NCBI GenBank assembly: GCA_050178385.1
Contig: JBFXGD010000023.1
Coordinates: forward strand, 1 to 19,818
DNA length: 19,818 bases
Direction of reading: 5' to 3'
Source of the DNA: Calditrichaceae bacterium
Lineage (GTDB): Bacteria > Calditrichota > Calditrichia > Calditrichales > JBFXGD01
Under the pieces are notes generated by a model. It was given only the letters and a program-made list of their open reading frames with translations. It searched no databases and was not told where the DNA came from. Shown here piece by piece: positions 1-18,901 of the stretch. Numbering within the stretch: position 1 is the first letter of the stretch; the number at the start of each line of letters is the position of its first letter. The translations under genes were made by a program, and so were the position numbers.

Positions 1-50
1 ATCCAGGTTATCCGGTTAATGTCACAATTACCGCGGGATTAAAATTTTAA
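1..50 (+). CDS. 3' end of an outer-membrane beta-barrel protein, probably a TonB-dependent receptor (partial, not in ORF track)
   Basis: The frame starting at base 3 reads PGYPVNVTITAGLKF then TAA (48-50). A PG.P motif, an amphipathic strand and a terminal Phe are typical of the last strand of TonB-dependent receptors. Only 15 codons are visible. Confidence 0.6.
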   Translation, partial: PGYPVNVTITAGLKF

Positions 51-116
51 TCAGGAGTGATGTTTTTAGAATTGTGGTATAGATCTTTCAGACATTCGGA
101 GTGAAAGGCAGCCAGT

Positions 117-1097
117 ATGAAAAAATATGTTTATTATTGTTTCGCGGTGTTTTTGATCTTTCAGAACGCGCCGCTGAAAGCGGAAAATACATTGTGGATA
201 TCAAATATGCCGCCGAAGGATACGGACAGAAAAATTCAACCTTTCGGAATGCATAAAATATCTTCCGTGCCGGTCCCTGGTATGAGGGGGACCTTTCATA
301 TCATACAATGGATACGCGGCGGAACATTGCCTGTAGAATCTGTATATTTGAGCGAAGCTCCATCGGCAAATGCGGAAATACATCTTCTCTCACCGGAAAA
401 TAAGCTGATTGATTGTAAGCAGGAGAATGGAACTATCATCTATGACGGTAATCCGGAGGGATTCTACAATCTTTATCTGACAGATAAGTATGTATCCGGA
501 GATACGCTCTACATAATAAACGCAAAAGCGGAGCGGTTGAGCCATAAGTGCCAGAACGGGCATAAGCATGTTCTAGCGAATCTACAGCCAAAAGACCTGA
601 AAAGTCATATCACGTACGAAATAATAAGAGACCGGCTCCCCCGGGAGGATTACCATACCTTTATTCAGTCCGGTGACAAGGTAACTTTCGGTTTGATTCT
701 CAAAGGGAATCCGGTTTCAGGTTCGAGGGTAAAACTCATTACCCAAACCGGTTGGGCTAAATTATCTAAGACTGATATAAACGGAGAAGTGACATTTCAA
801 ATACCGGAAGACTATTTTTCAGCGGTAACTGAATTTGAGAAACAAAAGATATTTAATTTTTTGATCGTGGCCGAACATGGCATTGCAGAAAATGGCGTTT
901 TTGACGGCAGTTCCTATAAACAGGTCCGATATACCGCCACATTCTCGGAAAGTTATATTCCGTCAAAAATGATGTATTCGTCCGCGGTATGGGCAATGAT
1001 AGTATTCGTATTCGCGCTTTCCCTGACAGCCGGCGCCGTTTTTTACTATCGTGAGCGGAAAAAAGTACCGTACCGGGAGGTCACATTCAATGAATAG
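117..1097 (+). CDS. Exported, C-terminally membrane-anchored protein, DUF4198-like; possible metal binding
   Basis: Sec-type signal peptide (MKKYVYYCFAVFLIFQNAPLKA). DUF4198-like segment (GDKVTFGLILKGNPVSGSRVKL...TDINGEVTF). His/Cys cluster SHKCQNGHKH. C-terminal TM helix followed by basic tail YYRERKK. AAAGG at 104-108 as RBS. Confidence 0.6.
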   Translation: MKKYVYYCFAVFLIFQNAPLKAENTLWISNMPPKDTDRKIQPFGMHKISSVPVPGMRGTFHIIQWIRGGTLPVESVYLSEAPSANAEIHLLSPENKLIDCKQENGTIIYDGNPEGFYNLYLTDKYVSGDTLYIINAKAERLSHKCQNGHKHVLANLQPKDLKSHITYEIIRDRLPREDYHTFIQSGDKVTFGLILKGNPVSGSRVKLITQTGWAKLSKTDINGEVTFQIPEDYFSAVTEFEKQKIFNFLIVAEHGIAENGVFDGSSYKQVRYTATFSESYIPSKMMYSSAVWAMIVFVFALSLTAGAVFYYRERKKVPYREVTFNE

Positions 1098-2094
1098 AAT
1101 TAGTGATTATATTAATACTTCAAATATCAGCCGGTTCAGATTTTACTTTCAGATAGCGGCATTTCTGCTGCTGATATACGGCGGCTACTATTTTATCCAT
1201 ATAAGCGACCAGATACCGACTTTTGCCTGTCCATATAATCAGGGAAGCGCCGGTACCTGCTTCCTGATAAGCCTGCAGCACAGGCTGCATACAACCTGGA
1301 GCAGCCTGTTCAGTTGGCGTGGAATAGCATTGCTGAATGGAATTATTGTATTCTTTATCCTTTTTATTTTTTTTAACAAAGCCTGGTGCGGTTATATCTG
1401 TCCTCTGGGTACCATCCAGGACTGGATCACCAAATTACGAAAGAAAACAGGTGTCCGCTTCTCGAAGTACGATGATTTGACTTTTAAACATTTGAAGAAG
1501 ATTAAGTACATTCTGCTGATTCTTCTTATACTGATACCGTTGGGAATGAGTAATTCCCTGTTCGGGCTTCCGAAATTTTCACACGATCTGTCCGCTCCGT
1601 TTTGCCAGGTTTGCCCGGGAAGAACGGTATTACCTTTATTTTCAGGAGATACATCACAATTTGCAGTGGATTTCAGCTCAGGGACAACCATCATTATGTC
1701 CTCACTGGGACTCATCGTGACCGGCCTGTTTTTTACGGGTTCGTTTGTAAAAAAGCGGTTTTTTTGTTTTTTCTGCCCGATGAGCGCGCTGCAGTATATT
1801 TTTTCAAAAGCGTCTCTGCTGCGGCTGACCAAGGATGGATCGAAATGCACCCGCTGCGGAAACTGCCACCGTGTGTGTGATGTGGGAATCAAAGAAATTG
1901 CTGATGATATTGATAGTAAAAATATTGTGCGCGATGACTGTATGATGTGTTTTAAATGTGTTGAAGCCTGTCCGGAGAATGATTGTCTTAAAGTGTCGAT
2001 TCTAACCCTACCGGTATTTACATCGACAGAAAAAGGATTTTTTAAAAGATATAATGTGACCGAAAAATCGGAGGTGACCGGATGGGAGAAATGA
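1090..2094 (+). CDS. Membrane-bound 4Fe-4S ferredoxin-type protein, NapH/MauN/FixG(RdxA) family
   Basis: About 4 TM segments. CxxxCP motifs (WCGYICPLG, FCQVCPG), RFFCFFCPM, and two ferredoxin motifs CTRCGNCHRVC and CMMCFKCVEACP. Start moved from 1051 to ATG 1090, which has GGGAGG at 1075-1080 and overlaps the upstream stop. Confidence 0.88.
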   Translation: MNRISDYINTSNISRFRFYFQIAAFLLLIYGGYYFIHISDQIPTFACPYNQGSAGTCFLISLQHRLHTTWSSLFSWRGIALLNGIIVFFILFIFFNKAWCGYICPLGTIQDWITKLRKKTGVRFSKYDDLTFKHLKKIKYILLILLILIPLGMSNSLFGLPKFSHDLSAPFCQVCPGRTVLPLFSGDTSQFAVDFSSGTTIIMSSLGLIVTGLFFTGSFVKKRFFCFFCPMSALQYIFSKASLLRLTKDGSKCTRCGNCHRVCDVGIKEIADDIDSKNIVRDDCMMCFKCVEACPENDCLKVSILTLPVFTSTEKGFFKRYNVTEKSEVTGWEK

Positions 2095-3401
2095 GCGACA
2101 CATTGAGCAGAAAAGACCGCATGAAAAAAACGGCCGTGATTCATCTTCGTATGGAATCAAATAAAAGTTTAAGGGAGATCGTGGACGATTTTCCCGGAAA
2201 GCTGGACGGTATGAGGTATTTTTATGATAAACTAAAACTATATTCCGACAGCTCAGGATTTAACACCGAAGGTAAAAAGGTCATCGCGACGATGTGTATT
2301 CATGTGCCCGTTGAACTGATCTACGCTGCGGGAGCGATTCCGGTTAGGATATGTTCGGGGGCGTACGCGACAGATACCATTGGCGCGGAATTCCTTCCCG
2401 CCAAAACATGTCCATTGATTAAATCAACATTGGGTTTACTTTACGCGAATACATTCGCCCGAAATATCAGGCCGGATCTGATTATAAATCCAACAACCTG
2501 TGACCAAAAAAAGAAACTCCCGGAAGTTGCGGAGGATATTGACACGGAGTTCTATACTCTCGAAGTGCCGCCTACAAAGGACAGTGAAGAAGCCCGATTC
2601 TATTGGCAGGGGGCAGTCAAAAAACTGGTTCTGAAGCTTGAAGCGGTGACCGGCCAAAGGATCACCCGAAGCAAATTGCGCAAGTCCATAAAAATGGTGG
2701 CGGAGGCGCAAAATCAGTTTAGAAGATTCAATGAAAATCGAAAAAATCTGCCGGTTATCGGAGGAAAGGACGCCATACTCATCTCAAATACCTTTTTCTT
2801 TGATGATATCATAACCTGGACAGCCGCCTTATCCCTTCTTAATGATGAGATGGATGAACGTATCAATGCCGGAGATACCATTGCCGCTGAAAGAGCTCCG
2901 CGTATTCTTCTGACAGGATCACCCTCAATATTTCCAAACATGAAACTTCCCGTTTTAATTGAAAAACTGGGAGGTGTTGTTGTTACGGAGGAGTTTTGTT
3001 CAACTACGCGTTTGCTTTATGACACCGTCGCGGTGGATGAATGGTATTTATATGATATGATTCCGGCGATCGCGGACAGGTATCTCAAGCCGGGAACTTG
3101 CCCGAATTTTACTCCGAATTCAGACAGATTCAGAAAATTATTGGATAATGTCAGGCAATTTAAGGTGGATGGTGTAATTTATCAGGCATTCGCCGGGTGT
3201 CAGCTATATGAACTGGAATCACGTAAAACAGGGAGGCTGCTTTCGGATGAAGGAATACCCATGCTGTACATTGAGACTGATTACAGCCCTGAAGACGCGG
3301 GACAGTTGTCAACTAGAATCGAGGCTTTTCTGGAATCGATAAAACTTAAAAAACAAAAAAACCGTCCGGAGGCTGAAAATGTCTTATTACGCGGGAATTG
3401 A
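2082..3401 (+). CDS. 2-hydroxyacyl-CoA dehydratase (HGD-D) fold Fe-S protein, double-cubane-cluster protein (DCCP/YjiM)-like anaerobic reductase
   Basis: Motifs MCIHVPVELIYAAGAIP, LPAKTCPLIKS, TTCDQKKK, RILLTGSP, EEFCSTTR, DRYLKPGTCPNFTPN, GCQLY and IETDYSPEDAGQLSTRIEAFLE. Seven Cys (C72, C91, C110, C140, C306, C340, C373). GGAGGTG RBS before 2082; alternative ATG at 2091. Confidence 0.85.
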   Translation: MGEMSDTLSRKDRMKKTAVIHLRMESNKSLREIVDDFPGKLDGMRYFYDKLKLYSDSSGFNTEGKKVIATMCIHVPVELIYAAGAIPVRICSGAYATDTIGAEFLPAKTCPLIKSTLGLLYANTFARNIRPDLIINPTTCDQKKKLPEVAEDIDTEFYTLEVPPTKDSEEARFYWQGAVKKLVLKLEAVTGQRITRSKLRKSIKMVAEAQNQFRRFNENRKNLPVIGGKDAILISNTFFFDDIITWTAALSLLNDEMDERINAGDTIAAERAPRILLTGSPSIFPNMKLPVLIEKLGGVVVTEEFCSTTRLLYDTVAVDEWYLYDMIPAIADRYLKPGTCPNFTPNSDRFRKLLDNVRQFKVDGVIYQAFAGCQLYELESRKTGRLLSDEGIPMLYIETDYSPEDAGQLSTRIEAFLESIKLKKQKNRPEAENVLLRGN

Positions 3402-4197
3402 TATCGGATCAAGCGCAATAAAGATTGCCCTGCTAAATGATTCATCAGAATTAATGGCAACCGGTATATCGCCCACAGGAAGCAGTTTTAATAAAAACGC
3501 GGCGGAAGCTCTGCAGACGCTTCTGGATAAAAACAGCCTGAGCAGGGATGAATTACTTTATACCGTCGCAACAGGCTATGGGAGAAAGTTGTTCAAGGAA
3601 AGTGATGAATCAATCAATGAAATAACCGCCAACGCGATGGGCGCGGCTTTGACCTGCCGCGAATCGGGTATTGTAAGGACGATTATCAATGTCGGCGGAC
3701 AGGATGCAAAAGTGATTGAAATAGATCATGATGGTCATGTGAGCAATTTTGTAATGAACGATAAATGCGCGGCCGGAACGGGTCGGTTTCTCGAGATGGC
3801 CGCCAGAAATCTGGAAGTCGATCTTCCCGAATTTGCCGAATTACATTTTCAAAGCGCCGATCAGCCCTTACCGATCAACAGCACCTGCGCGGTTTTCGCG
3901 GAATCAGAAATCATTTCTCTTCTCGCCGAGGGACATAGCAAAAGTGAAATCGCGGCAGGTATCCATTATTCTATTGCAAGGAGGATTGCTCGGTTGGCAG
4001 GTCGAGTGAAAATCGAAGAAGTAATTCTTTTTGATGGCGGCGCCGCTTTGAACAGGGGGATGCTGGCGGCGTTGGAGGATGAACTGATGCGGCCTGTCAT
4101 GACATGCAAACTTCCTCAAATTACGACTGCCATAGGAGCGGCTGCCGCCGCGTTAAAATCATTTCATTCACAGGAGGTTACAAATGCCATATATTAA
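3379..4197 (+). CDS. ASKHA-family ATP-dependent electron-transfer activase (HgdC/HadI/BadF-BadG-BcrA-BcrD family; DCCP-reductase-like)
   Basis: GIDIGSSAIK, ATGYGR, EITA, GGQDAKVI, MNDKCAAGTGRFLE and STCAVFAESEIISL. The two conserved Cys are those that bind the bridging [4Fe-4S] cluster in this family. Overlaps the preceding gene by 23 nt. Confidence 0.93.
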   Translation: MSYYAGIDIGSSAIKIALLNDSSELMATGISPTGSSFNKNAAEALQTLLDKNSLSRDELLYTVATGYGRKLFKESDESINEITANAMGAALTCRESGIVRTIINVGGQDAKVIEIDHDGHVSNFVMNDKCAAGTGRFLEMAARNLEVDLPEFAELHFQSADQPLPINSTCAVFAESEIISLLAEGHSKSEIAAGIHYSIARRIARLAGRVKIEEVILFDGGAALNRGMLAALEDELMRPVMTCKLPQITTAIGAAAAALKSFHSQEVTNAIY

Positions 4198-5035
4198 ATG
4201 GTGCGTCGTTGTTGTAGTGCTCATCATAGCCGGCAGCGCAATGTCAGGAGAATATGACAATTTTTTTAAACCCGATTATGGCGAAAAAATCGCTAAATGT
4301 AAAAATTGCGGGGAAGATATTTACGAAAACATGATGACGAAAGTTGACCTGATTCGAAAGGAAAAGGACCCGGAATATGCCTGCTCGCTGCCTTGCGCGA
4401 TCAAACTTATCGATAATTCTGAACGCTATGCCGACATGTATGTGATGGAATATTATTCAGGCAGGATGATTTCAGCGGCAAACGCGATTTTTGTTCTTGG
4501 AGGAAATCATTATCCTGAAAAGACTAATTTTCCTGTGTTTGCGTTCGATCGACAGGATAGAGCCGTTTATTTTATCAGTCAGCACGGAGGATCAATTTTC
4601 GGAACAGAATCGATCCTAAAACTAGCGAGAGAAAACAACAAAAATGATTATTCCAGATTGTTCTATCCGGATCCGGGAGAAAAAATCGGCGTTTGCATCC
4701 ACTGTGAACAGCCTGTATATGAAAAACAACTTACTCGCCTGGAAATAATCACTGATGAAGGAATCGTTAACGCATGTGATCTTAAATGCGCGAAGAGTAG
4801 AATTGACGGAAGCAATTATAGCAATATCCGGGTCATAAACTTCACAACCGGTTTTTCTTTTGGATTCGAAAAAGCATGGTTCATAATAAACAGCAATGTA
4901 CTTCCCAATTCGGGAGAACTGCCTGTGCTGGCATTTAAGGAAAATATGATCGCTGAAGAATTTATTAAAATTCATCGGGGGAAAATACTGACATCCGCAG
5001 AGATGATTGATATCTTAAAGAAAGTTAACGACTAA
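4184..5035 (+). CDS. Secreted protein with two tandem NosL-like (CxxC...CxxxC) domains
   Basis: Signal peptide, then two repeats of about 130 aa. Each has CxxC, ACxxxCA and NosL-like C-terminal motifs (VMEYYSGRMISAANAIFVLG...FAF...FISQHGG; VINFTTG...EKAWFII...LAF...FIKIHRG). ACAGGAGG RBS. Confidence 0.8.
   Translation: MPYIKWCVVVVVLIIAGSAMSGEYDNFFKPDYGEKIAKCKNCGEDIYENMMTKVDLIRKEKDPEYACSLPCAIKLIDNSERYADMYVMEYYSGRMISAANAIFVLGGNHYPEKTNFPVFAFDRQDRAVYFISQHGGSIFGTESILKLARENNKNDYSRLFYPDPGEKIGVCIHCEQPVYEKQLTRLEIITDEGIVNACDLKCAKSRIDGSNYSNIRVINFTTGFSFGFEKAWFIINSNVLPNSGELPVLAFKENMIAEEFIKIHRGKILTSAEMIDILKKVND
4250..5029 (+). repeat. Internal protein-level duplication (about aa 23-150 and aa 155-282, period about 132 aa)
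   Basis: EYDNFFKPDYGEKIAKCKNCGEDIYE aligns with DYSRLFYPDPGEKIGVCIHCEQPVYE; ACSLPCA with ACDLKCA; PVFAF with PVLAF. Confidence 0.85.
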
Positions 5036-5047
5036 TGAGAGCAGGTT

Positions 5048-5416
5048 ATGACCGGTCTTGATCGGGATTTTATTATTCTCAAAATATATGCTTTTGTCAC
5101 GGTTATGCTGATTGTGATTTTTACCGTTTTTGTGTTTTACAGTCGCGCGGTAGTCTCAAATGATCAGAGATTGTCTCAGGAAGCCGAGATTGTCAGGTTG
5201 CTGCATATCACCGATATGTGTGTAGCGACAGAATCAAGACATACCCGTCACATCGCTCTTCCGGAGCCGGCAGCGGCTTTTCAGGATATACCCGGCTTTC
5301 TGGATCACTTTCCCACATCGACATTTTTTTGGCCGCCTCCGCAGGTGAAAATTAAGCAATCATCAGAAACGGGTGTTATCGGAAATAAAAATCCAATGAT
5401 CGGAAATAAGAAATGA
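5048..5416 (+). CDS. Small membrane-anchored hypothetical protein with His/Cys/Asp-rich soluble domain
   Basis: N-terminal TM helix, then LHITDMCVATESRHTRH...AFQDIPGFLDHFPTSTFF. Stop overlaps the next start (ATGA, 5413-5416). Confidence 0.7.
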   Translation: MTGLDRDFIILKIYAFVTVMLIVIFTVFVFYSRAVVSNDQRLSQEAEIVRLLHITDMCVATESRHTRHIALPEPAAAFQDIPGFLDHFPTSTFFWPPPQVKIKQSSETGVIGNKNPMIGNKK

Positions 5417-6576
5417 GACGCCATTTATTTATTCTAGCCTTCTTTTTGACTTCGGCGCGCCGCCACTGGAAATGGCATCTTGGAGTCATCACCATATTTT
5501 CAGTGGTTGTATTTGCTTTCGCTTCCATTGTCTTTTTTATACAGTCGCTGTCATATGAAACGCGACAAGTGCTCAGTTCGGCGCCCGATATTACGATGCA
5601 GAAGATAAAAGCGGGCAGAATGGTTGAAATACCGGACAGTCTGGTACAGAGCATCAGCGAAATTCGCGGTATAAAATCAGTTGTCCCAAGGGTTTGGGGG
5701 TATTATTTTGATTCTCCCACGGGCGGGGTGTTCACTCTGATGGGCTCAGACTCTCTTCCGGGTAATCTTACCTTAGTGGATGGAAGAGGTATTCAGCCCG
5801 GTGACCGGGGAATAGCTGTTTGCGGAACCGGTTTTTTGGAGACGCACTACCTGAGACTTCAGGATAATCTGAGCCTTTTCGATAGCGATGAAAATCTTCT
5901 TAATTTTACGATAACCGGCCGGTTTAGATCGCCGTCGGATCTGCTGACCAGGGATCTGATCATTCTGCCAATTGAAGACGCGCGAAAAATTGTGGGATTG
6001 AAAGAGACAGAATACAGCGATCTTTCCATCTATGTTTTTAATGATGATGAAATAGAAAATATCAGCCGCAAAATTGACCGCCGTTTTCCTTCCGTAAGAG
6101 TCGTTACAAAAGCGGAAATTAAGTCAACCTACGAGGCTCTGTTTGGTTATCGCGGCGGCTTGTTTATGTTCGGGCTGCTGATTTCCCTGTTTGCCTATAT
6201 GATTCTGGCCTGGCAGAGAGCATCCGGTATTTCTGCAGAAGCGAAAAAAGAGCTGGGAATACTTAAGGCCGTCGGATGGGAAATATCTGATGTGCTCTTG
6301 CTCAAATTCTGGGAAGGCATATCCATATCGCTGACTGCGACTCTCATTGGTTTAATCGGAGCCTATATACATGATTTTATTTTTCAGGCGTCTTTGCTCA
6401 AGCCGTTTTTAGTCGGCTGGTCCGTTATTTACCCTGAATTTAATCTTCTGCCTGTGGTGCAGATCGGCAGTGTCCTTCTGATTCTTGTTCTTGCTGTTGT
6501 GCCATATATTGCCGCGACCATGATTCCATCCTGGAAAGCAGCGGTTATAGACCCTTCGGAGGTGATGCATGCCTGA
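5413..6576 (+). CDS. ABC transporter permease, FtsX/MacB/LolC-LolE family
   Basis: One N-terminal TM, a periplasmic domain of about 200 aa, three C-terminal TMs. Motifs KKELGILKAVGW and IPSWKAAVIDPSEVM. Confidence 0.9.
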   Translation: MRRHLFILAFFLTSARRHWKWHLGVITIFSVVVFAFASIVFFIQSLSYETRQVLSSAPDITMQKIKAGRMVEIPDSLVQSISEIRGIKSVVPRVWGYYFDSPTGGVFTLMGSDSLPGNLTLVDGRGIQPGDRGIAVCGTGFLETHYLRLQDNLSLFDSDENLLNFTITGRFRSPSDLLTRDLIILPIEDARKIVGLKETEYSDLSIYVFNDDEIENISRKIDRRFPSVRVVTKAEIKSTYEALFGYRGGLFMFGLLISLFAYMILAWQRASGISAEAKKELGILKAVGWEISDVLLLKFWEGISISLTATLIGLIGAYIHDFIFQASLLKPFLVGWSVIYPEFNLLPVVQIGSVLLILVLAVVPYIAATMIPSWKAAVIDPSEVMHA

Positions 6577-7261
6577 TATGATTGTAACCCAAAAACTGTC
6601 AAAAACTTTCAACAAGGATAAAGTAAATGAAGTAGATGCCGTTCGCGGCGTTGACATGAATATAAAAAAAGGTGAAGTCATAGTATTGAAAGGGCCGTCC
6701 GGATCAGGAAAAACAACGTTAATGGCCGTATTGGGGTGCATGGCAAAACCAACATCGGGAGAGGTGATTATTCTCGGAAACCGGGTCTCAAAGTGGACGG
6801 AGAAATTTCTTACCTTATTCAGGAGACAGCATATTGGATTTATCTTTCAAAATTTTAATCTGATCAGCGGATTGACGGCCGCGCAGAACATTATTATCCC
6901 GATGATTCCGTCAGGACCGGATATCAGTGGACTCAACCGGAGAACGATGGAGATCGCGGAGAGTTTGAATATTTCCCACCGGCTGAATTTTAAAATTGAC
7001 ACGCTTTCAGGTGGCGAGGCGCAGCGTGTGGCCATCGCCAGGGCGCTGATTACCGATCCCGAAATAATAATGGCAGACGAACCGACCGCCCATCTTGATA
7101 CAAAGTTATCCGGCCAGATTATGGATATTTTCCGGGATCTTAAAAAACAGGGTAAAACTCAGATTATCGCCACACATGACCCGCTCGTATATGAATCGGA
7201 TCTGATAGACCGCATCATCTGTATGAGGGACGGGTACCTGGTTGAAGAGGAGAATGAATAG
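6569..7261 (+). CDS. ABC transporter ATP-binding protein, LolD/MacB-like
   Basis: Walker A GPSGSGKT, GFIFQNFNL, signature LSGGEAQRVAIARAL, Walker B IIMADEPT, H-loop ATHD. GGAGGTG RBS. Confidence 0.95.
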   Translation: MPDMIVTQKLSKTFNKDKVNEVDAVRGVDMNIKKGEVIVLKGPSGSGKTTLMAVLGCMAKPTSGEVIILGNRVSKWTEKFLTLFRRQHIGFIFQNFNLISGLTAAQNIIIPMIPSGPDISGLNRRTMEIAESLNISHRLNFKIDTLSGGEAQRVAIARALITDPEIIMADEPTAHLDTKLSGQIMDIFRDLKKQGKTQIIATHDPLVYESDLIDRIICMRDGYLVEEENE

Positions 7262-8272
7262 ATGCTGACCGATCTGTGGGTCATCGTAATGCTGATCGGA
7301 GATGTCTTTGTTCTTTTTTTCTCGGTTTATGCGGTTGGCGTCGGAATTCAGATTGCCCGAAAGTGGGATATTCAGTCATCGACAGATGAACAGCTCCTGC
7401 TCGAAAGGAAGACACACCTGGTATCAACCGTAATGAATTATGTTTTCGGGTTTCAGATGATCTCGCTTCTGCTTTTTGTAGTGACCGTCAATGATCATTT
7501 CCCGGCGCTGATAAAAGGCGCAATGTGCGGAACAGGTTCATTGAATACAAATAGTTTCGGCTGGCTGACGCTTTACCTTAAAATAGGCGGATTTTTTATT
7601 TACGGTTCATGGCTTATTATAAATAACCTTGATCAGAAAATTCCCGAATTTCCACTTACCCGCCAAAAGTTTTTTCTTCTGCTGATTCTGATCCCATTTA
7701 TATTTATTCAGATTTATTCTGAACTTCAGTATTATCTGAATATCAATCCAAACATCATTACCACCTGCTGCAGTATCTCATTCAGTGATAATCCGCTGTC
7801 ACAAAACTCTTTTGATAACAGCGGCGATGAATCGGTTAAAGTATATCTTTTTTACGGACTGCTGATTTTCTATGTCATTGCCGGTGTGTTTGGCTTGCGG
7901 AAACAGCAAACAAAACTTGTTTGTCGAACCGGTTATGTGACGGGAATTCTTTCTCCGCTCCTGTTTATAGGGGCGTTGGACGCGCTTATTGTCCATTTTT
8001 CAAAATATATCTACGCCATGCCTTCGCATCACTGTCCCTTTGATATGCTTTGGGCAAATTATCTGCATGTGGGTTACCTGCTTTATGGACTACTTTTCGC
8101 CGGCAGCCTGACCGGCATGTCCGTCGGTTTGATGGTATTCTTTTCGAATAATAAGAATGTTTCTGATATCGCCGGAATCATGAAAAACCGCTTTATTAAA
8201 ACCAGTTTGTTCTGCTTCATATCCTACACATTTCTGATTATTTTGATTAAGTATGGATGGACAATCATTTAA
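7262..8272 (+). CDS. Polytopic (about 8 TM) hypothetical membrane protein with GAMC, CC and HHCPF motifs
   Basis: Eight hydrophobic segments with loops containing IKGAMCGTG, ITTCCSISF and YAMPSHHCPF. Start directly abuts the upstream TAG; GAGGAG RBS. Confidence 0.75.
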   Translation: MLTDLWVIVMLIGDVFVLFFSVYAVGVGIQIARKWDIQSSTDEQLLLERKTHLVSTVMNYVFGFQMISLLLFVVTVNDHFPALIKGAMCGTGSLNTNSFGWLTLYLKIGGFFIYGSWLIINNLDQKIPEFPLTRQKFFLLLILIPFIFIQIYSELQYYLNINPNIITTCCSISFSDNPLSQNSFDNSGDESVKVYLFYGLLIFYVIAGVFGLRKQQTKLVCRTGYVTGILSPLLFIGALDALIVHFSKYIYAMPSHHCPFDMLWANYLHVGYLLYGLLFAGSLTGMSVGLMVFFSNNKNVSDIAGIMKNRFIKTSLFCFISYTFLIILIKYGWTII

Positions 8273-8348
8273 TTAAAGCTTAATTTCCGGTAAATTTATA
8301 TCCCCGGTTTTATGTCTTTTTGGTTCGTTTTTAATAATGCTGTTAAAT

Positions 8349-8376
8349 TTGCCATTAAAGAATCTTTTTTTATTTT
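8349..8376 (+). promoter_or_regulatory. Candidate sigma70-type promoter for the HAD hydrolase gene block
   Basis: TTGCCA (8349-8354), 16-nt spacer, TATTTT (8371-8376), in an AT-rich 176-nt intergenic gap. Confidence 0.4.
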
Positions 8377-8448
8377 AGATTCAGACGTTTGATTTCCTTA
8401 AGTTCTTTTCTAAATCAGAACTGGAACTAACCGGAAAGGAGTTTCATT

Positions 8449-11105: not shown

Positions 11106-12962
11106 ATGAGCACCAGCAAGACAGCTTTTGCCGGAGCATTGCGGAATACCATTAAGAATAGATTAACTTTGCTCTCGCCTGAAATTATCAGTGAAATAAA
11201 TGCTAATCTTGATCCGTCGCAGGATCGCGCACCAAATCTCTGGGAGACGGCGAATATTTTGGGTAATTACTACAACAGAGTCTCTGTAGGAAATGATGTC
11301 CGTAAAACATGCAGGGAGATCATTGATCATATCCGGACTTTTCAGGGGCAAAGGGCGGTAGAATCGAAAACTCCCGCGCCTGTCGTATTCGGTACGTCGG
11401 GATGGCGTGGTCTCATCGGCGAAGATTTTACCATCGAAAATGTGCATAAAGTTGTTCGCGGTATCATTGAAATGATGAAAAGCGATGAATTTTTGAAGAC
11501 AAACGGATACACGGATTTTGATGATGTCAGGAAAGCGGGGATTCTTCTTTTGAGGGATAACCGGTTTATGGGGGATCAGTTTCTCGTTGCCGCAATGCAT
11601 GAACTCGCTTCAGAAAAAATAAAGATCTATTTTGCCGGTGAATGTCCGACAGGGGTGGGTTCGGCAATACTAAAAGAATTAAAGGCGGCGGGATCGATTA
11701 ACTTCACGCCGTCGCATAATCCTATGGAATACGCGGGTGTTAAATTCAATCCCGGTGACGGCGGGCCGGCTGATAAGAATCTGACATCGATTATCGAAGA
11801 GAAATCGAACGCGTATATGAAAGACGGTTCTGATTTTATCCCGGCGGTGAGCGATTTTGACGAACTCCGTACGGATATCAATGGTAAGGAACTATTCAGA
11901 AAATTCGTGGAAGAAAAAGGTCTGGCGTTTGATCTGAAACAAATCAGAGCCTGGCTGAAAAAATCAAAAAATGATCTTTTTATTCTCATCGATAATATGC
12001 ACGGCTCTTCAAGAGGTTATGTACAGTCGCTTCTCGGTGAGGATATTATAGGGGAGCTTGAAAAGGCGGGGGCAATTGAATTTATGCATACCGATGAAGA
12101 TTATTCGTTTCATGGAGTGAAACCGGAGCCTAGCGCGGCCAATCAGAAACCACTGATAGATAAACTGCAATTATCGGGAAGAAAAATGACTCTGGCCGTG
12201 GCAATGGATCCGGATGCTGACAGGATTCGTTTTGGCGACGCGGAAATGGATAGTGATATGAACCGTTTTGCCGCGATTGCTTTTGAGAATATAATCAATA
12301 AAGGTATCAAAGGCGGAATAGTCACCAGTGTGCCTTCGTCAGGTTTTGCACCCGAGGTTGCCCGCGCGAATCAATTTCCGTTTTATGAAACCCCGGTCGG
12401 GTTTAAAAATTTCCGTGAGGCGCTCACCGGTGGTGATGTGGCGATGGCATTTGAAGAGTCGGACGGTATTACTTTTAAGGGGCATACGTTAGAAAAATGC
12501 GCTTTGGCAGGGTTTTTGGCGGCACTGGATGTGATGGCTTCAACCGGAGAAAATCTCTCGGAACGGTATAGCGATCTGTGTAAAAAATACGGATATTTCT
12601 ACCCTGAAAGAGGTGGAGAGGATGTCAAAGGTGTGAGTGTGGAAGCCTGGCAAAAATATAAAGCCGATGTTGTCAATGTTCTGATGAACGGACTATATAA
12701 AACCGGTGATGAAATTACCATCGGAAATGAAAACAAAAAAATCGTGGAAATAAATACGATCGACGGATTAAAAATTATTTTTGAAGATAAAAGCTGGATT
12801 TTGTTGAGGCCCTCGGGGACGGAACCGAAATTCCGTTATTATTATGAATTGGTAAGCAGTGAACCGAGTGATGATTATGCGGAGCGCCTTAAATTCTATG
12901 GAAAAACGGCAGCTGATATTCTTGAAAGAGCAAGAAAAATAGTAGAGAGAAACGCGCCTTAA
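11106..12962 (+). CDS. Alpha-D-phosphohexomutase (phosphoglucomutase/phosphomannomutase)
   Basis: FGTSGWRG, catalytic-Ser loop TPSHNP, metal loop DPDADR, TPVGFK, FEESDG and phosphate loop RPSGTEPK. About 90 aa precede the first motif. Confidence 0.92.
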   Translation: MSTSKTAFAGALRNTIKNRLTLLSPEIISEINANLDPSQDRAPNLWETANILGNYYNRVSVGNDVRKTCREIIDHIRTFQGQRAVESKTPAPVVFGTSGWRGLIGEDFTIENVHKVVRGIIEMMKSDEFLKTNGYTDFDDVRKAGILLLRDNRFMGDQFLVAAMHELASEKIKIYFAGECPTGVGSAILKELKAAGSINFTPSHNPMEYAGVKFNPGDGGPADKNLTSIIEEKSNAYMKDGSDFIPAVSDFDELRTDINGKELFRKFVEEKGLAFDLKQIRAWLKKSKNDLFILIDNMHGSSRGYVQSLLGEDIIGELEKAGAIEFMHTDEDYSFHGVKPEPSAANQKPLIDKLQLSGRKMTLAVAMDPDADRIRFGDAEMDSDMNRFAAIAFENIINKGIKGGIVTSVPSSGFAPEVARANQFPFYETPVGFKNFREALTGGDVAMAFEESDGITFKGHTLEKCALAGFLAALDVMASTGENLSERYSDLCKKYGYFYPERGGEDVKGVSVEAWQKYKADVVNVLMNGLYKTGDEITIGNENKKIVEINTIDGLKIIFEDKSWILLRPSGTEPKFRYYYELVSSEPSDDYAERLKFYGKTAADILERARKIVERNAP

Positions 12963-12974
12963 AAAGGAATTTGG

Positions 12975-13601
12975 ATGATGAAAAAAAATGGTAATACGGA
13001 AATAAAAGCGGTTATTTTTGACCTTGGACGCGTACTTGTTAAAGTTGATTTCGCGAGGGGTTTGTTCAAATATGCCCATACTTCGCCCAACGCCGATGAT
13101 CTTGCGCTATTGGATAAATTGTTCAAAAATGAACTGTTTATCCAGTTTAATACCGGAAAGATTGATACAATACAGATGTATCAGTCTGTCAAAGATCAAT
13201 TTGATATCCAGCTTGAATACGATGTCTTTAAAGAAAAATGGTGTGATATTTTCTCGCCGATGGATGGCATGGAATCAGTTGTGCGCGAAGCGGGTGAGAG
13301 ATATCATTTAGGATTGCTCTCAGATATCGATCCGCTGCATTGGGAATATCTCAAAAATACCTATGGATTGCTTGATGTATTTGATAAACCTACCCTAAGT
13401 TTTGAGACCGGAATCCTGAAACCGGCAGCTGAAGCGTATAAAGTCGCCGCCCACAATGTGGGTTTTGATCCTGAAAATTGTTTTTTTATCGATGACAGGC
13501 CGCAGAATATTGAAGGCGCGGTTAAAGCCGGTATGCGGGGAGTTATTTTTACCGGGGTTGAAAAACTAAGATCCGATTTGCATAAATCAGGCATACTCTG
13601 A
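12975..13601 (+). CDS. HAD-family phosphatase, YihX (glucose-1-phosphatase)-like
   Basis: IFDLGRVLV, LLSD...LHW, LSFETGILKP and FFIDDRPQNIEGA. AAAGGA RBS. Directly follows the mutase gene. Confidence 0.85.
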   Translation: MMKKNGNTEIKAVIFDLGRVLVKVDFARGLFKYAHTSPNADDLALLDKLFKNELFIQFNTGKIDTIQMYQSVKDQFDIQLEYDVFKEKWCDIFSPMDGMESVVREAGERYHLGLLSDIDPLHWEYLKNTYGLLDVFDKPTLSFETGILKPAAEAYKVAAHNVGFDPENCFFIDDRPQNIEGAVKAGMRGVIFTGVEKLRSDLHKSGIL

Positions 13602-14660: not shown

Positions 14661-15896
14661 TTATTCCCGCGAAATGGGCATAGTCATACAGCGGCAGCCG
14701 CCCCCGCCCCTTGTGAGCTCATTACCAGAAATAGCCACCGCATATTTGTCCATTTTATTCAAATCAACTTTTCCGCTGATCACATCGATGGCTTCAACAC
14801 GAGGTATTCCGGCTTGCGCGAGCGCTTCATAGGTGTATATATTCATTCCGTAACCGATAATTTTTCCCGGCGCGATCGTAAAGAAGTTAGCCCCGGACTG
14901 CCATTGTTCGCGCTTTTGATAAAGATCCGTATCTCCTCCGCAATTAATCGGTTCAAGATTAATATTTACAGTTCTTAAGGCATTGAGAAGATATGGATAT
15001 CTGTTAAATTTGGGATGGTTGATATCGGACAAATTTATATGGATGACGTCAACGGCATTTTTTGCCAGAATCACCGGTGGTGAAACCACAGCCTTATCAT
15101 GGTCAATCATCGTAAAAACCATATCAAGGTGTATTGTAGCTCTGATTTTCGGAAGGACGACAACAAACACATGTTTTATGTTTTTACTCTTTTTGAATCG
15201 TTCAACAAGATAATCAATCCCCTGCGTACTGGTTCTTTCACTCATCCCTATAAGGACAGTATCTTCCTGCAGAATAAGAATATCACCCCCTTCAAATGTA
15301 GCGTCCGGCATACTCACTTTTGTGGCATCAATTAAAAATTCCTGACAAAGCAAATCAGAATGAAAACGAAAAATGTAGCTCATTATAATCGCTTCAGCGA
15401 TACGAATCCGGTTTGCCATATTTCCGATTATGGCTTTATCATTGATAACCATTGCTGAATCCCTGGTAAAAAACAGGTTTGGCAGGGGCGGCAGTGAATA
15501 ATTTCTGGGAGTAAGAAAACGTTCCAGTGTATTCCTTTTAATTTTCGTTCCTGTAATTAATTGAGCCGCAAGTGTTTTTGGATCAAGATCAAGAAGGGAA
15601 TTTTCCACTTCAACGGTGTTCAGGTGGGCGCACAAATCCCGTATGAGTTCTCTTTTTACTTTTTCATCCTCTAAAATATCTGTGAGTAAATCCTTGACCT
15701 GAATCGGCTCAGCAACTTTTGCCAAAACACCGCTAAGCTGATTATGCTGTTTGATGGCTGACGGCAGATAAAGAATATCATCATACAACAATTCAACGGC
15801 AGCCTCGGGAGTCATCAGTTCCAGTTCCATGCCGGGTGTATGAATGATTACTTTTTTTAAGGGACTTATTTCAGAAGTTACATGAACACGACTCAC
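14661..15896 (-). CDS. arcA: Arginine deiminase
   Basis: VTSEISPLKKVIIHTPG, LLYDDI, PLPNLFFTRD, EGGD, HLDMVFTMID, REQW and ELTRGGGGCRCMTMPI (catalytic Cys). GTG start with GGAG upstream. Confidence 0.92.
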   Translation of the reverse strand: MSRVHVTSEISPLKKVIIHTPGMELELMTPEAAVELLYDDILYLPSAIKQHNQLSGVLAKVAEPIQVKDLLTDILEDEKVKRELIRDLCAHLNTVEVENSLLDLDPKTLAAQLITGTKIKRNTLERFLTPRNYSLPPLPNLFFTRDSAMVINDKAIIGNMANRIRIAEAIIMSYIFRFHSDLLCQEFLIDATKVSMPDATFEGGDILILQEDTVLIGMSERTSTQGIDYLVERFKKSKNIKHVFVVVLPKIRATIHLDMVFTMIDHDKAVVSPPVILAKNAVDVIHINLSDINHPKFNRYPYLLNALRTVNINLEPINCGGDTDLYQKREQWQSGANFFTIAPGKIIGYGMNIYTYEALAQAGIPRVEAIDVISGKVDLNKMDKYAVAISGNELTRGGGGCRCMTMPISRE

Positions 15897-18008: not shown

Positions 18009-18010
18009 TA

Positions 18011-18880: not shown

Positions 18881-18901
18881 TTAATCACCCGGGAATTTAA
18901 A

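What the first reader, a model, noticed from the sequence alone, without database searches (positions are those of the whole stretch)
1..8272. Ten-gene envelope-spanning operon joining an ATP-driven double-cubane-like reductase to outer-membrane uptake and metal-trafficking proteins
Seen: after the first gap the genes are almost all translationally coupled (overlaps at 1090-1097, 2082-2094, 3379-3401, 4184-4197, 5413-5416, 6569-6576; abutting at 7261/7262; one 12-nt gap), ending at an AT-rich gap from 8273. All non-ABC full-length genes carry Cys/His clusters. Known: HGD-D-fold proteins with ASKHA activases use ATP to generate very low-potential electrons; NapH-type proteins link the quinone pool to Fe-S partners; NosL is a metallochaperone; LolCDE/MacB-type ABCs act on periplasmic cargo. 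No CoA transferase, acyl-CoA dehydrogenase, ETF, nap or nosZ gene is in the visible operon, so the usual roles of these parts do not explain it. Inference: a dedicated system that imports a metal chelate or cofactor and reductively releases or modifies it, or builds a metallocofactor and delivers it to the periplasm. I know of no characterised system of this composition, although similar gene clusters may exist unannotated in other anaerobes.
Basis: partly seen in the sequence, partly recalled or inferred. Interest (0 to 1): 0.9.

Follow-up and report, generated by a model that had tools for sequence, protein, structure and literature searches.

The report
Copper-linked reductase and transporter genes behind nosZ
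The ten genes are the tail of a nitrous-oxide-reductase gene cluster and combine two widely conserved, undescribed modules (an outer-membrane importer wired to an ATP-driven iron-sulfur reductase, and a NosL-associated ABC/membrane-protein set) that most likely gather and hand on copper.

Summary
The coordinates, overlaps and domain calls hold. The "ten-gene operon" does not stand alone. The window starts at a contig end. In the same genome (contig C40) and in a same-genus genome the block follows, on the same strand, a clade II nos cluster. That gives 26 co-directional genes with no gap above 85 nt.

The block is made of two modules that are conserved separately.

- **Module A:** TonB receptor, DUF4198-fold anchored protein, NapH-like Fe-S membrane protein, double-cubane reductase and activase. 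The four-gene core recurs in 73-76 of 79 related loci from at least six phyla. It is usually followed by a DsbD_2 membrane protein and TonB genes.
- **Module B:** a small membrane protein, an FtsX permease, an ABC ATPase and an 8-helix Cys/His membrane protein of no known family. It is a fixed four-gene unit. A NosL gene lies nearby in 9 of 12 contexts fetched from other phyla, and a TlpA-like gene in 7 of 12.

Each module also occurs inside or at the end of nos clusters in other phyla. Both also occur in genomes without nosZ.

Best reading (0.45): reductive copper harvesting and hand-on for NosZ and other cuproenzymes. The metal and the direction of electron flow are inferred, not shown. My searches of the paper library found no description of either module.

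The parts
3..50 (+). Last 15 codons and stop of a TonB-dependent receptor (first gene of module A). The rest lies on contig C40 of the same assembly and in an unassembled gap.
   Evidence: Identical to the C-terminus of the 743-aa receptor of G001. C40 carries residues 1-465 of the receptor at 89% identity and runs off its end. The full-length G001 receptor has Plug, barrel and CarboxypepD_reg domains. Its best solved relatives are YncD (1.2e-44) and PqqU (9.4e-44).
117..1097 (+). g1: exported DUF4198-fold protein with a C-terminal membrane anchor (291-309) and a conserved cytoplasmic tail. It carries a conserved H143-x-C145-x3-H149, H180 motif.
   Evidence: Pfam DUF4198 scores only 21.3 bits, below the cut-off of 34. 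The AlphaFold2 model has pLDDT 88.3. Foldseek top hits are Zcp (9mhl: E 6.5e-10, prob 1.00, TM 0.61-0.65) and a Ni-bound DUF4198 protein (9gcb). Conservation. TM segment.
1090..2094 (+). g2: NapH/MauN-superfamily membrane protein with two [4Fe-4S] motifs. Sixteen Cys are invariant. CX3CP and CX2CP motifs lie after TM2 and TM4. A CX9C and a CX2CP motif lie in the loops predicted to face the periplasm.
   Evidence: The complex model with g1 scored ipSAE 0.68, 0.68 and 0.55; the best control scored 0.00.
2082..3401 (+). g3: double-cubane-cluster-protein (DCCP) type reductase.
   Evidence: NF040772 scores 353.8 against a cut-off of 350. The match to DCCP chains 7yyl_C and 6eno_A gives E 1.3e-71 and 4.6e-71, with all seven Cys aligned to Cys. 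Cys spacing is 18/18/29/165/33/32.
3379..4197 (+). g4: ASKHA-type ATP-dependent activase (DCCP-R/HgdC type).
   Evidence: BcrAD_BadFG scores 181 bits. TIGR00241 scores 236.9 against a cut-off of 125.4.
4184..5035 (+). g5: membrane-anchored tandem NosL-like protein with two CxxC-x(23-24)-CxxxC sites.
   Evidence: Pfam NosL scores 41.6 against 24 on residues 37-144. The motifs lie at 39-71 and 171-202. They correspond to the Cys59/Cys62/Cys88 site of S. denitrificans NosL (passages read in PMC8457098), but the Met64 equivalent is missing.
5048..5416 (+). g6: small single-pass membrane protein, first gene of module B, with the conserved motif TEARYTRH...FQD.P...HFP.
   Evidence: No Pfam or NCBIfam match. 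It lies directly before the FtsX gene in 15 of 16 fetched module-B loci. Alignment.
5413..6576 (+). g7: FtsX/MacB-type permease with a periplasmic domain.
   Evidence: FtsX 29.6 bits and MacB_PCD 27.0 bits. It is 34-51% identical in 16 of 16 module-B loci.
6569..7261 (+). g8: ABC ATPase of the MacB/LolD/FtsE type.
   Evidence: ABC_tran 110.4 bits. All NCBIfam equivalogs score below their cut-offs.
7262..8272 (+). g9: eight-helix membrane protein of an unnamed family, with invariant GAMC89, C169-C170 and H256-H257-C258-P259.
   Evidence: 345 homologues were found, and all names given are 'hypothetical' with no Pfam domain. Alignment A1. The AlphaFold2 model has pLDDT 89.1 and shows two four-helix bundles. 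No informative solved match was found. There is no profile similarity to DsbD_2.
8273..8448 (.). AT-rich spacer that ends the array. Unrelated housekeeping genes follow (HAD, beta-CASP, NFACT-R, phosphoglucomutase).
   Evidence: The same downstream genes occur in G001.

Best explanation
The window's ten genes are the distal third of a 26-gene, single-strand clade II nos supercluster. They consist of two separately conserved modules plus a NosL gene.

**Module A** is the TonB-dependent receptor, g1, g2, g3 and g4. It brings a metal species across the outer membrane. g1 is a DUF4198-fold protein with a His/Cys site, and it captures the metal in the periplasm. g1 is anchored beside the NapH-like Fe-S membrane protein g2. 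The cytoplasmic double-cubane reductase g3 and its ATP-driven activase g4 are wired to g2. Together they carry out a low-potential reduction that frees the metal or changes its state. I slightly favour electrons passing outward through g2 to the g1-bound species. This is inferred.

**Module B** is g6 to g9. It works with NosL-type and TlpA-type proteins, here the tandem NosL g5 and the NosL/TlpA genes just upstream. An FtsX-type ABC machine and a Cys/His membrane protein move or load Cu(I) for periplasmic copper centres.

In this genus both modules serve copper supply to NosZ.

Shown: gene content, conservation, the nos context, the folds, and the predicted g1-g2 contact. Inferred: copper as the metal, the direction of electron flow, and every biochemical step.
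For: **1. Context**
- In G001 the order is MerR, FAD/FeS oxidoreductase, Rieske, cyt b, cyt c, NosZ, two unknowns, NosD, NosF, a NosL-like gene, NosY, an unknown, a TlpA/ResA-like gene, NosL, NosL, the TonB receptor, then g1-g9.
- All lie on one strand, and the largest gap is 85 nt.
- NosZ is Sec-type: TIGR04246 scores 823 against a cut-off of 625.
- G000 contig C40 carries the same genes at 78-99% identity and ends inside the receptor.

**2. Module A conservation** (79 loci outside the genus)
- g2 lies next to g3 in 76 loci; the other 3 lack room on the contig.
- g4 lies next to g3 in 76; 2 lack room and 1 lacks the gene although it has room.
- g1 is present in 73; 6 lack room.
- A receptor lies directly upstream in 48 of the 64 loci with room.
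- DsbD_2 is in 54 of 80 loci, ExbD in 23 and ExbB in 18.

**3. Module A and nos**
- In a Lentimicrobiaceae MAG, module A lies inside a nos cluster: NosZ-like, NosZ, two unknowns, NosD, one unknown, two receptors, g1-g4, NosG, NosH, NosF, one unknown, NosY.
- Two NosZ-like genes adjoin module A in L027. NosF and NosY adjoin it in L070.
- nosZ is present in 7 of the 9 module-A genomes of Bacteroidota and Calditrichota that were searched.

**4. Module B and copper**
- The unit g6-g9 is intact in all 16 fetched loci, with g6 detected in 15.
- A NosL gene lies within the fetched 18 kb in 9 of 12 contexts from other phyla, and a TlpA-like gene in 7 of 12.
- In gammaproteobacterial locus L099, module B ends a NosZ...NosD-NosG-NosH-NosF-x-NosY-TlpA array.
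- In L072 a SCO1/SenC gene precedes it.

**5. The two modules go together**
- They share a locus in L072.
- In L109 a second DCCP-plus-activase pair directly follows g9.
- g9 is present in 21 of 50 module-A genomes.
- In a family sample of 121 genomes, 4 of the 5 genomes with g3 also have g9, against 19 of 116 without g3. Fisher p is 0.0045, but related genomes are not independent.

**6. g1-g2 contact**
- The g1 fold matches Zcp, which the paper reports also binds Co, Ni and Cu in vitro (passages read in PMC12663993).
- The complex model supports g1-g2 binding but does not show it. The median score over three runs was 0.68 and the best of three controls was 0.00.
- In the tool's calibration, 116 of 157 solved complexes and 2 of 215 mismatched pairs reached the mark.
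- The runs agree in at least 48% of their contacts, and the partner's pLDDT is at least 75.
- The interface is the g1 membrane helix (284-312) against g2 residues 188-220, plus periplasmic contacts.
Against: - **No direct evidence for copper in module A.** Only about 6 of the 79 loci outside the genus have nos, NosL, SCO1 or module B genes within 10 kb.
- **nosZ is often missing.** 27 of 50 module-A genomes showed no nosZ, including the isolates Azovibrio restrictus and Azonexus caeni. Many of these are incomplete MAGs.
- **The receptor does not resemble known copper receptors.** Its best solved relatives are YncD and PqqU, and no chain named as a copper receptor appeared among the 48 matches at E <= 1e-5.
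- **Neighbours elsewhere point to other metals.** These are PepSY_TM in 6 loci and CobN in 4.
- **Module B is only weakly enriched in nosZ genomes.** 16 of 23 genomes with g9 have nosZ, against 51 of 98 without g9; p = 0.16.
- **g5 lacks a key NosL ligand.** The Met that is strictly conserved next to the Cu-binding Cys of NosL is absent.
- **Module A may be a recent insertion.** It was found in only this genus among 41 genomes of the order, so it may sit here by chance.
- **Untested foundations.** The topology of g2 rests on hydropathy and charge only. Co-transcription is untested.
Confidence: 0.45

Rival explanations
1. Module A is a general reductive harvesting system for another metal or metal chelate: iron, cobalt, nickel or zinc. 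It lies in the nos cluster of this genus only through a recent insertion. Only g5-g9 belong to copper handling.
For: - Module A is autonomous in most lineages, with its own TonB/ExbBD genes and DsbD_2.
- Its neighbours include PepSY_TM in 6 loci and CobN in 4.
- The best NCBIfam match of the receptor is the siderophore-receptor subfamily, below cut-off.
- DUF4198 proteins have been linked to zinc and iron limitation (passages read in PMC12663993).
- g3 orthologues at E <= 1e-80 were found in 2 of 41 genomes of the order, both in this genus.
Against: - Module A is embedded in or adjoins nos genes again in other lineages: L030, L027 and L070.
- It shares a locus with module B plus SCO1 in L072.
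- g3 and g9 co-occur in the family sample.
- No convincing Fur or Zur box lies before the receptor in the 43 loci scanned. The best match was 14 of 19 for Fur and 17 of 23 for Zur, the latter in AT-rich DNA.
Confidence: 0.3
2. g2-g4 are an electron-supply or reactivation device for NosZ. ATP-energised low-potential electrons would pass through the NapH-like protein to keep the copper centres of NosZ reduced. This would stand in for NosR, which clade II clusters lack.
For: - The genes lie in nos clusters in this genus and in L030.
- g2 belongs to the NapH/NosR-C-terminal superfamily; NF046105 NosR matches at E 1.9e-6.
- From my own recall, not from a call: inactive CuZ needs a strong reductant in vitro, and NosR sustains NosZ activity.
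Against: - The core always travels with an uptake-type receptor and a metal-capture protein.
- No nosZ was found in 27 of 50 carrier genomes.
- L030 has its own NosG and NosH beside g2.
Confidence: 0.1
3. Module A imports and reduces a corrinoid or cobalt, as earlier notes of this scan proposed for related loci said to lie under cobalamin riboswitches.
For: - Earlier AI notes e1-4071651 and e1-2055288 make this proposal (unchecked leads).
- CobN lies in 4 of 80 loci.
- From my own recall: ASKHA-type ATPases reactivate corrinoid proteins.
Against: No cobalamin riboswitch reached Rfam's gathering score in 34 of the 80 related loci that were scanned, nor in the window, L013 or L018. No B12 gene lies in this locus.
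Confidence: 0.07
4. g3 and g4 are a classical 2-hydroxyacyl-CoA dehydratase or benzoyl-CoA-reductase-type enzyme of fermentation.
For: The Pfam name of HGD-D.
Against: - There is a single HGD-D subunit, not an alpha/beta pair.
- It carries the seven-Cys DCCP pattern and matches DCCP at 1e-71, against 1e-24 or weaker for BzdN and HadC-type chains.
- No CoA-transferase, acyl-CoA dehydrogenase or ETF lies in the block. An acyl-CoA-dehydrogenase-domain gene does lie about 0.5 kb beyond the head of the supercluster, on the same strand, after MerR (L018:11008-12705; copy on C40).
Confidence: 0.01

Closest known systems
DCCP / DCCP-R of Carboxydothermus hydrogenoformans (PDB 6ENO, 7YYL)
   Same: g3 matches at E about 1e-71 with all seven Cys aligned. 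g4 is the same ASKHA activase type. The pair is adjacent and overlapping.
   Different: The natural role of DCCP is listed as unknown (passages read in PMC7317905). Here the pair is fixed next to a NapH-like membrane protein, a periplasmic metal-capture protein and a TonB-dependent receptor.
NosDFY-NosL copper delivery to NosZ
   Same: It is an ABC machine working with a NosL chaperone in a nos cluster. This genome has NosD, NosF, NosY and several NosL genes upstream.
   Different: g7 and g8 are FtsX/MacB-type, not ABC-2 type. There is no NosD-like beta-helix. There are extra partners, g6 and g9. The set also occurs in genomes without nosZ.
NapH / NosH / NosR C-terminal domain / CcoG (PF12801 membrane Fe-S proteins)
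   Same: g2 has four predicted membrane helices, CXnCP motifs and two [4Fe-4S] motifs.
   Different: It scores far below the NapH cut-off (75.6 against 213). It has no NapG-like or FMN-binding partner. It has four extra invariant Cys in the predicted periplasmic loops, and its partner is a DCCP. That CcoG is a cupric reductase is recalled, not checked here.
Zcp and other DUF4198 periplasmic metal-binding proteins (PDB 9MHL, 9GCB)
   Same: The fold matches: Foldseek E 6.5e-10, prob 1.00. Both are periplasmic and found with TonB-dependent uptake genes.
   Different: g1 is below the Pfam cut-off. It carries a C-terminal membrane anchor with a conserved cytoplasmic tail and a His-x-Cys-x3-His motif, where Zcp has three His (passages read in PMC12663993).
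Campylobacter P19/FetM with FetABCDEF (recalled, not checked here)
   Same: A metal-uptake locus that joins FtsX-type permeases, an ABC ATPase, a further membrane protein and periplasmic thioredoxin-like proteins.
   Different: No P19 or FTR1 here. The partners are NosL and g9. No sequence comparison was made.

Membership tests
Double-cubane cluster protein (NF040772) | Score at or above the curated cut-off | tested here: met
   353.8 bits against a cut-off of 350. This is a narrow pass.
Double-cubane cluster protein (NF040772) | Seven-Cys pattern CX19CX18-19CX29CX166-170CX32-34CX32C (passages read in 10.1101/2022.07.06.499078) | tested here: inconclusive
   g3 has exactly seven Cys with spacings 18/18/29/165/33/32. 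Two gaps are one residue short, so the literal pattern fails. All seven align to Cys of 7yyl_C.
Double-cubane cluster protein (NF040772) | Adjacent ASKHA activase | tested here: met
   g4 overlaps g3. TIGR00241 scores 236.9 against 125.4. The pairing holds in 76 of 79 related loci.
Double-cubane cluster protein (NF040772) | [8Fe-9S] cluster and ATP-dependent reduction | not testable with these tools
   Needs purified protein.
NapH / NosH quinol dehydrogenase subunit | Family model score | tested here: not met
   TIGR02163 scores 75.6 against 213.05, and NF007013 scores 75.3 against 234.
NapH / NosH quinol dehydrogenase subunit | NapG/NosG-type periplasmic ferredoxin partner | tested here: not met
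   None is in the window or in the G001 cluster. L030 has separate NosG and NosH genes beside g2.
NosL copper chaperone (PF05573) | Pfam gathering score | tested here: met
   41.6 against 24 for residues 37-144 of g5. The second half was not detected by Pfam.
NosL copper chaperone (PF05573) | Cu/Zn ligands Cys59, Cys62, Met64, Cys88, Asp92 of S. denitrificans NosL (passages read in PMC8457098) | tested here: inconclusive
   CxxC...CxxxC is present twice. The residue two places after the second Cys is E or Q, not Met. This was judged by eye, without a structural alignment.
NosL copper chaperone (PF05573) | Lipoprotein signal | tested here: not met
   g5 has an N-terminal hydrophobic segment at 4-22 with no lipobox Cys after it. 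This was judged by eye.
DUF4198 (PF10670) | Pfam gathering score | tested here: not met
   21.3 against 34.
DUF4198 (PF10670) | Fold of solved members | tested here: met
   Foldseek gives 9mhl_B at E 6.5e-10, prob 1.00, target TM 0.61, and 9gcb_A at 6.4e-5. The model has pLDDT 88.3.
MacB/LolCDE-type (FtsX) ABC system | FtsX and MacB_PCD domains plus a separate ATPase | tested here: met
   FtsX scores 29.6 against 25.5, MacB_PCD 27.0 against 27, and ABC_tran 110.4. LolCE scores 51.2 against 362, so it is not Lol.
Clade II (Sec-type) nos gene cluster | NosZ of the Sec type with nosD, nosF, nosY and nosL on the same strand next to the block | tested here: met
   TIGR04246 scores 823.4 against 625 in G001. 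NosD, ABC_tran, ABC2_membrane and NosL match by Pfam. A 96% identical NosZ lies on G000 contig C40. The join of C40 to C23 is inferred from G001, not assembled.
DsbD_2 (PF13386), for g9 | Profile similarity | tested here: not met
   hhalign of A1 against A4 gives probability 0.4.

The most novel reading that the evidence does not exclude
The double-cubane reductase is the motor of a transmembrane, ATP-driven low-potential electron supply, or possibly a sulfide supply. It would let anaerobes strip copper from otherwise inaccessible species, such as tight chelates or copper-sulfide complexes, in the periplasm. The NosL/TlpA-associated FtsX machine and the Cys/His membrane protein would then feed that copper into the copper and copper-sulfur centres of N2O reductase. 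This would give DCCP its first physiological role and identify a missing copper-supply route for clade II NosZ in sulfidic habitats. The rhodanese and MauE-like genes after the DCCP pair in L109 keep a role in sulfur delivery open.
Probability: 0.2. Interest if true: 0.85.

Novelty: new variant of a known kind. Interest (0 to 1): 0.62.

Why it matters
Two open questions become testable.

1. **The natural job of double-cubane reductases.** The review I read in passages lists it as unknown (PMC7317905). Here the enzyme has a fixed cellular setting: an outer-membrane importer, a periplasmic metal-capture protein and a membrane Fe-S protein.
2. **How N2O reducers obtain and distribute copper where it is scarce.** A 2025 preprint, read in passages, calls for work on copper acquisition under sulfide (10.1101/2025.06.28.662143). 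N2O reduction is the only biological sink of this greenhouse gas.

Module B with its unnamed Cys/His membrane protein is a second, widespread partner of NosL that nobody seems to have described. Two cultured carriers of both modules, Azovibrio restrictus DSM 23866 and Azonexus caeni KACC 11481, make genetic tests possible.

Tried and rejected
- **Cobalamin riboswitch or other riboswitch.** Rfam at gathering score found none in 34 related loci, the window, L013 or L018. The only hits were tRNAs, an L19 leader and a 5' ureB sRNA.
- **Fur and Zur boxes before the receptor.** Consensus scans of 43 loci gave at best 14 of 19 and 17 of 23 matches, which is not convincing.
- **Fold of g9.** Foldseek against PDB gave nothing at E <= 0.001. 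The wide structural search gave only generic four-helix bundles; the top hit had Z 15.1 and was a designed protein, within the range expected for helical bundles.
- **g9 against DsbD_2.** No profile similarity.
- **The 125-aa protein of the nos cluster against the ~125-aa proteins before Bacteroidota receptors.** No similarity.
- **An in-frame TGA reported in a g9 homologue.** It proved to be the normal stop codon.
- **Expression.** No RNA holder was listed for window 1-8400.
- **Earlier notes of this scan.** None were found for this place or for the g9 sequence.
- **Literature.** These searches found no paper describing either module:
  - 'double-cubane' with 'TonB-dependent': 0 papers.
  - '2-hydroxyglutaryl-CoA dehydratase', 'TonB-dependent receptor', 'NapH'.
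  - 'double-cubane cluster': 20 papers.
  - 'NosL', 'FtsX', 'thioredoxin'.
  - 'nosZ' with 'FtsX': 1 unrelated paper.
  - nos cluster, TonB, NosL, clade II.
  - BcrAD, DUF4198, dehydratase, activase.
- **Limits of the literature check.** Subscription journals are not covered. bioRxiv supplements are closed, and Supplementary File 1 of 10.1101/2021.01.07.425746 lists NapH-like clusters and might include relatives of g2.
- **Two checks not run.** I did not use the search of protein representatives. I did not search for g5 homologues, so I do not know how common tandem NosL proteins are.

Full report
**Observation**

The window is G000:C23:1-19818, so its first base is a contig end. Nine complete plus-strand genes follow a 15-codon gene tail.

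The tail, PGYPVNVTITAGLKF*, is identical to the end of a 743-aa TonB-dependent receptor in a same-genus genome, G001.

- g2 is a NapH/MauN-like membrane ferredoxin, below that family's cut-off.
- g3 is an HGD-D protein that just passes the double-cubane model NF040772 (353.8 against 350).
- g4 is an ASKHA activase.
- g5 is NosL-like.
- g7 is an FtsX/MacB_PCD permease.
- g8 is an ABC ATPase.
- g6 and g9 match nothing.
- g1 has only a sub-threshold DUF4198 hit.

**What lies upstream**

In G001 the nine genes are conserved at 79-97% identity. They are preceded on the same strand by these genes:
- the receptor;
- two NosL genes;
- a ResA/TlpA-like thiol-disulfide oxidoreductase;
- a 125-aa unknown;
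- a NosY-like ABC-2 permease;
- a 256-aa NosL-like protein;
- a NosF-like ATPase and NosD;
- two unknowns;
- a Sec-type NosZ (TIGR04246, 823 against 625);
- a cytochrome c, a cytochrome b and a Rieske protein;
- a GltD-like FAD/Fe-S oxidoreductase;
- a MerR-family regulator.

That makes 26 co-directional genes over about 25 kb, with no gap above 85 nt.

The window's own assembly has the same genes on contig C40 at 78-99% identity. C40 ends inside the receptor at residue 465 of 743. The join of C40 to C23 is inferred from G001, not assembled.

**Module A**

A scan of one genome per species with g3 returned 80 loci at 46-64% identity, apart from L019, the same-genus locus (G001), at 90%. They come from Bacteroidota, Calditrichota, Nitrospirota, Desulfobacterota, Beta- and Gammaproteobacteria (including methanotrophs and sulfur-oxidising symbionts), Spirochaetia and others.

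The counts below cover the 79 loci outside the genus:

| Gene | Present | Contig lacks room | Absent with room |
|---|---|---|---|
| g2, directly before g3 | 76 | 3 | 0 |
| g4, after g3 | 76 | 2 | 1 |
| g1, before g2 | 73 | 6 | 0 |
| Receptor, directly before g1 | 48 | 15 | 16 |

My receptor query is weak at long range, so 48 of 64 is a lower bound.

Other features of module A:
- Outside the Bacteroidota and Calditrichota lineages, a DsbD_2 (PF13386) membrane protein follows the activase. It is in 54 of 80 loci by tblastn (Pfam on examples).
- TonB, ExbB and ExbD genes are frequent.
- Occasional neighbours are a second receptor with PepSY_TM (6 loci) or a BNR propeller (6), CobN (4) and MacAB-type pumps (5).
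- Within the window's own order, g3 orthologues at E <= 1e-80 were found only in the two genomes of this genus, out of 41 searched. The module is therefore patchy and probably mobile.

**The proteins of module A**

- **g3.** It matches the solved DCCP chains at about 1e-71, with all seven Cys aligned. Its Cys spacing differs by one residue in two gaps from the published pattern (passages read in 10.1101/2022.07.06.499078).
- **g2.** Sixteen Cys are invariant across 29 orthologues. These comprise two ferredoxin motifs, a CX3CP after TM2 and a CX2CP after TM4. A CX9C and a CX2CP lie in the two loops that hydropathy and charge place in the periplasm. That topology is my inference.
- **g1.** It folds with confidence (pLDDT 88.3). 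Its best solved matches are the zinc-capture protein Zcp and a Ni-bound DUF4198 protein. It differs from them in three ways: a C-terminal membrane helix, a conserved cytoplasmic tail, and a conserved H-x-C-x3-H plus H motif.
- **g1 with g2.** The complex prediction supports binding; it does not show it.
  - The score was 0.68 (three runs: 0.68, 0.68, 0.55), and the best of three controls scored 0.00.
  - In the tool's calibration, 116 of 157 solved complexes and 2 of 215 mismatched pairs reached the mark. Those counts hold only roughly, because my own alignments were used.
  - The runs share at least 48% of contacts, and the partner's pLDDT is at least 75.
  - The interface puts the g1 helix 284-312 on g2 residues 188-220, with periplasmic contacts near g2 residue 51.

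**Module B**

g9 belongs to an unnamed family. It has 345 homologues, all named 'hypothetical' and none with a Pfam domain. The invariant motifs are GAMC, CC and HHCP. The confident eight-helix model matches no informative solved structure.

Distribution and context of module B:
- g9 was found in 9 of 41 genomes of the order and in 21 of 50 module-A genomes.
- In all 16 contexts I fetched, g7-g8-g9 are contiguous. g6 precedes them in 15.
- In the 12 contexts from other phyla, a NosL gene at 40-49% identity to the upstream NosL of G001 lies nearby in 9. A TlpA-like gene lies nearby in 7.
- The four Calditrichales relatives have neither.
- In gammaproteobacterial locus L099, module B ends an array: NosZ, cyt c, an unknown, NosD, NosG, NosH, NosF, an unknown, NosY, TlpA-like, two unknowns, then g6-g9 and another TlpA-like gene.
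- In L072 a SCO1/SenC gene precedes it, and module A lies 3 kb upstream.
- In L109 the order is ABC, TlpA-like, NosL, g6-g9, a second DCCP-type protein, an activase, a MauE-like protein and a rhodanese.

**Links to nos and between the modules**

- Module A sits inside a nos cluster in a Lentimicrobiaceae MAG (L030 with L111).
- It adjoins NosZ-like genes in L027, and NosF and NosY in L070.
- nosZ was found in 23 of 50 module-A genomes. That is 7 of the 9 from Bacteroidota and Calditrichota, but not the two isolates.
- In a family sample of 121 genomes around Azonexus, g3 occurs in 5, g9 in 23, both in 4, and nosZ in 67.
- The g3-g9 association gives Fisher p = 0.0045. The g9-nosZ association (16 of 23 against 51 of 98) gives p = 0.16.
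- Related genomes are not independent, so these p-values overstate the case.

**Interpretation**

Shown:
- The block is the end of a nos supercluster.
- It is built from two modules, each conserved far beyond this genus.
- Both modules recur with copper-chaperone or nos genes in unrelated phyla.
- They tend to occur in the same genomes.

Inferred: that module A harvests copper here.

The uptake-type parts (receptor, DUF4198 fold) argue for a metal or metal complex as cargo. So does the strict coupling to an ATP-driven reductase whose family works at very low potential (passages read in PMC7317905).

The Bacteroidota version has five genes and no inner-membrane permease. Together with the predicted g1-g2 contact at the periplasmic face, this makes me slightly favour electrons flowing outward through g2. 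The alternative is that g2 feeds quinol-derived electrons to the activase, and that g3 reduces an imported compound in the cytoplasm. I cannot exclude it.

For module B I draw an analogy with NosDFY-NosL and with MacB-type machines, which do periplasmic work; their mechanism is recalled, not checked. The analogy suggests ATP-driven transfer of Cu(I) between the Cys/His membrane protein g9 and NosL/TlpA-type partners.

**Against the copper reading for module A**

- Most loci show no copper gene nearby.
- The receptor resembles YncD and PqqU rather than any chain named for copper.
- Some neighbours point to iron or cobalt.
- g5 lacks the conserved Met of NosL.

Earlier AI notes of this scan describe the same module elsewhere and link it to cobalamin riboswitches. 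I found no such riboswitch in 34 related loci or in this genus.

**Novelty**

My literature searches found no description of either module. Reductive metal uptake and NosL-based copper delivery are known kinds of system. The variants here are new in two respects: a double-cubane reductase wired to a TonB system, and an FtsX/Cys-His membrane set partnered with NosL. Three earlier notes of this scan had already flagged module A in other genomes. The nos embedding, module B and the g1-g2 contact are added here.

Noticed in passing
L018:10094-10510 (minus; G001), with a copy on G000 contig C40: The MerR-family regulator at the head of the nos supercluster has a C-terminal tail with nine Cys. It scores below the cut-offs for CueR, ZntR and HspR. 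It may be a metal or redox sensor for the whole array.
   Followed up: partly
L018:4943-10060 (minus; G001): In this genus a GltD-like FAD/Fe-S oxidoreductase, a Rieske protein, a cytochrome b and a cytochrome c precede NosZ, in place of NosG/NosH. This is an unusual electron-input set for a clade II cluster.
   Followed up: no
L025:4705-5082, 12721-13098 and 17201-17578, and 8 further copies in 6 other Bacteroidota loci: A membrane protein of about 125 aa with the motif LCENxDKPxxxCNGKC precedes TonB-dependent receptors in these loci. It has no Pfam match.
   Followed up: partly
L111:509-5190 (minus; G046:C40) and L027:374-4900: Tandem NosZ-like paralogues lie next to module A. In L111 they are 794 aa (with a cytochrome c tail) and 751 aa (with a weak nos_propeller match).
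   Followed up: no
L109:5070-13627 (minus; G087:C37): A second, divergent DCCP-type protein (33% identical to g3) with its activase directly follows g9. After them come a MauE/DoxX-like membrane protein and a rhodanese. This hints at a sulfur or thiol link.
   Followed up: partly
L013:17073-17843 (minus; G001): A 256-aa NosL-like protein is inserted between NosF and NosY. Together with two 161-aa NosL genes and the tandem g5, this gives five NosL-type domains or genes in one array.
   Followed up: no
window 14661-15896 (-) and 16069-19816 (+): An arginine deiminase gene lies on the minus strand. A TetR, outer-membrane efflux protein, HlyD and ABC ATPase set runs off the window end. These are ordinary genes, unrelated to the finding.
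   Followed up: no
L038:17288-17577 (+): A 5' ureB sRNA match (130.6 bits) lies about 6 kb downstream of module A in Azovibrio restrictus. A urease locus is nearby; relevance unknown.
   Followed up: no
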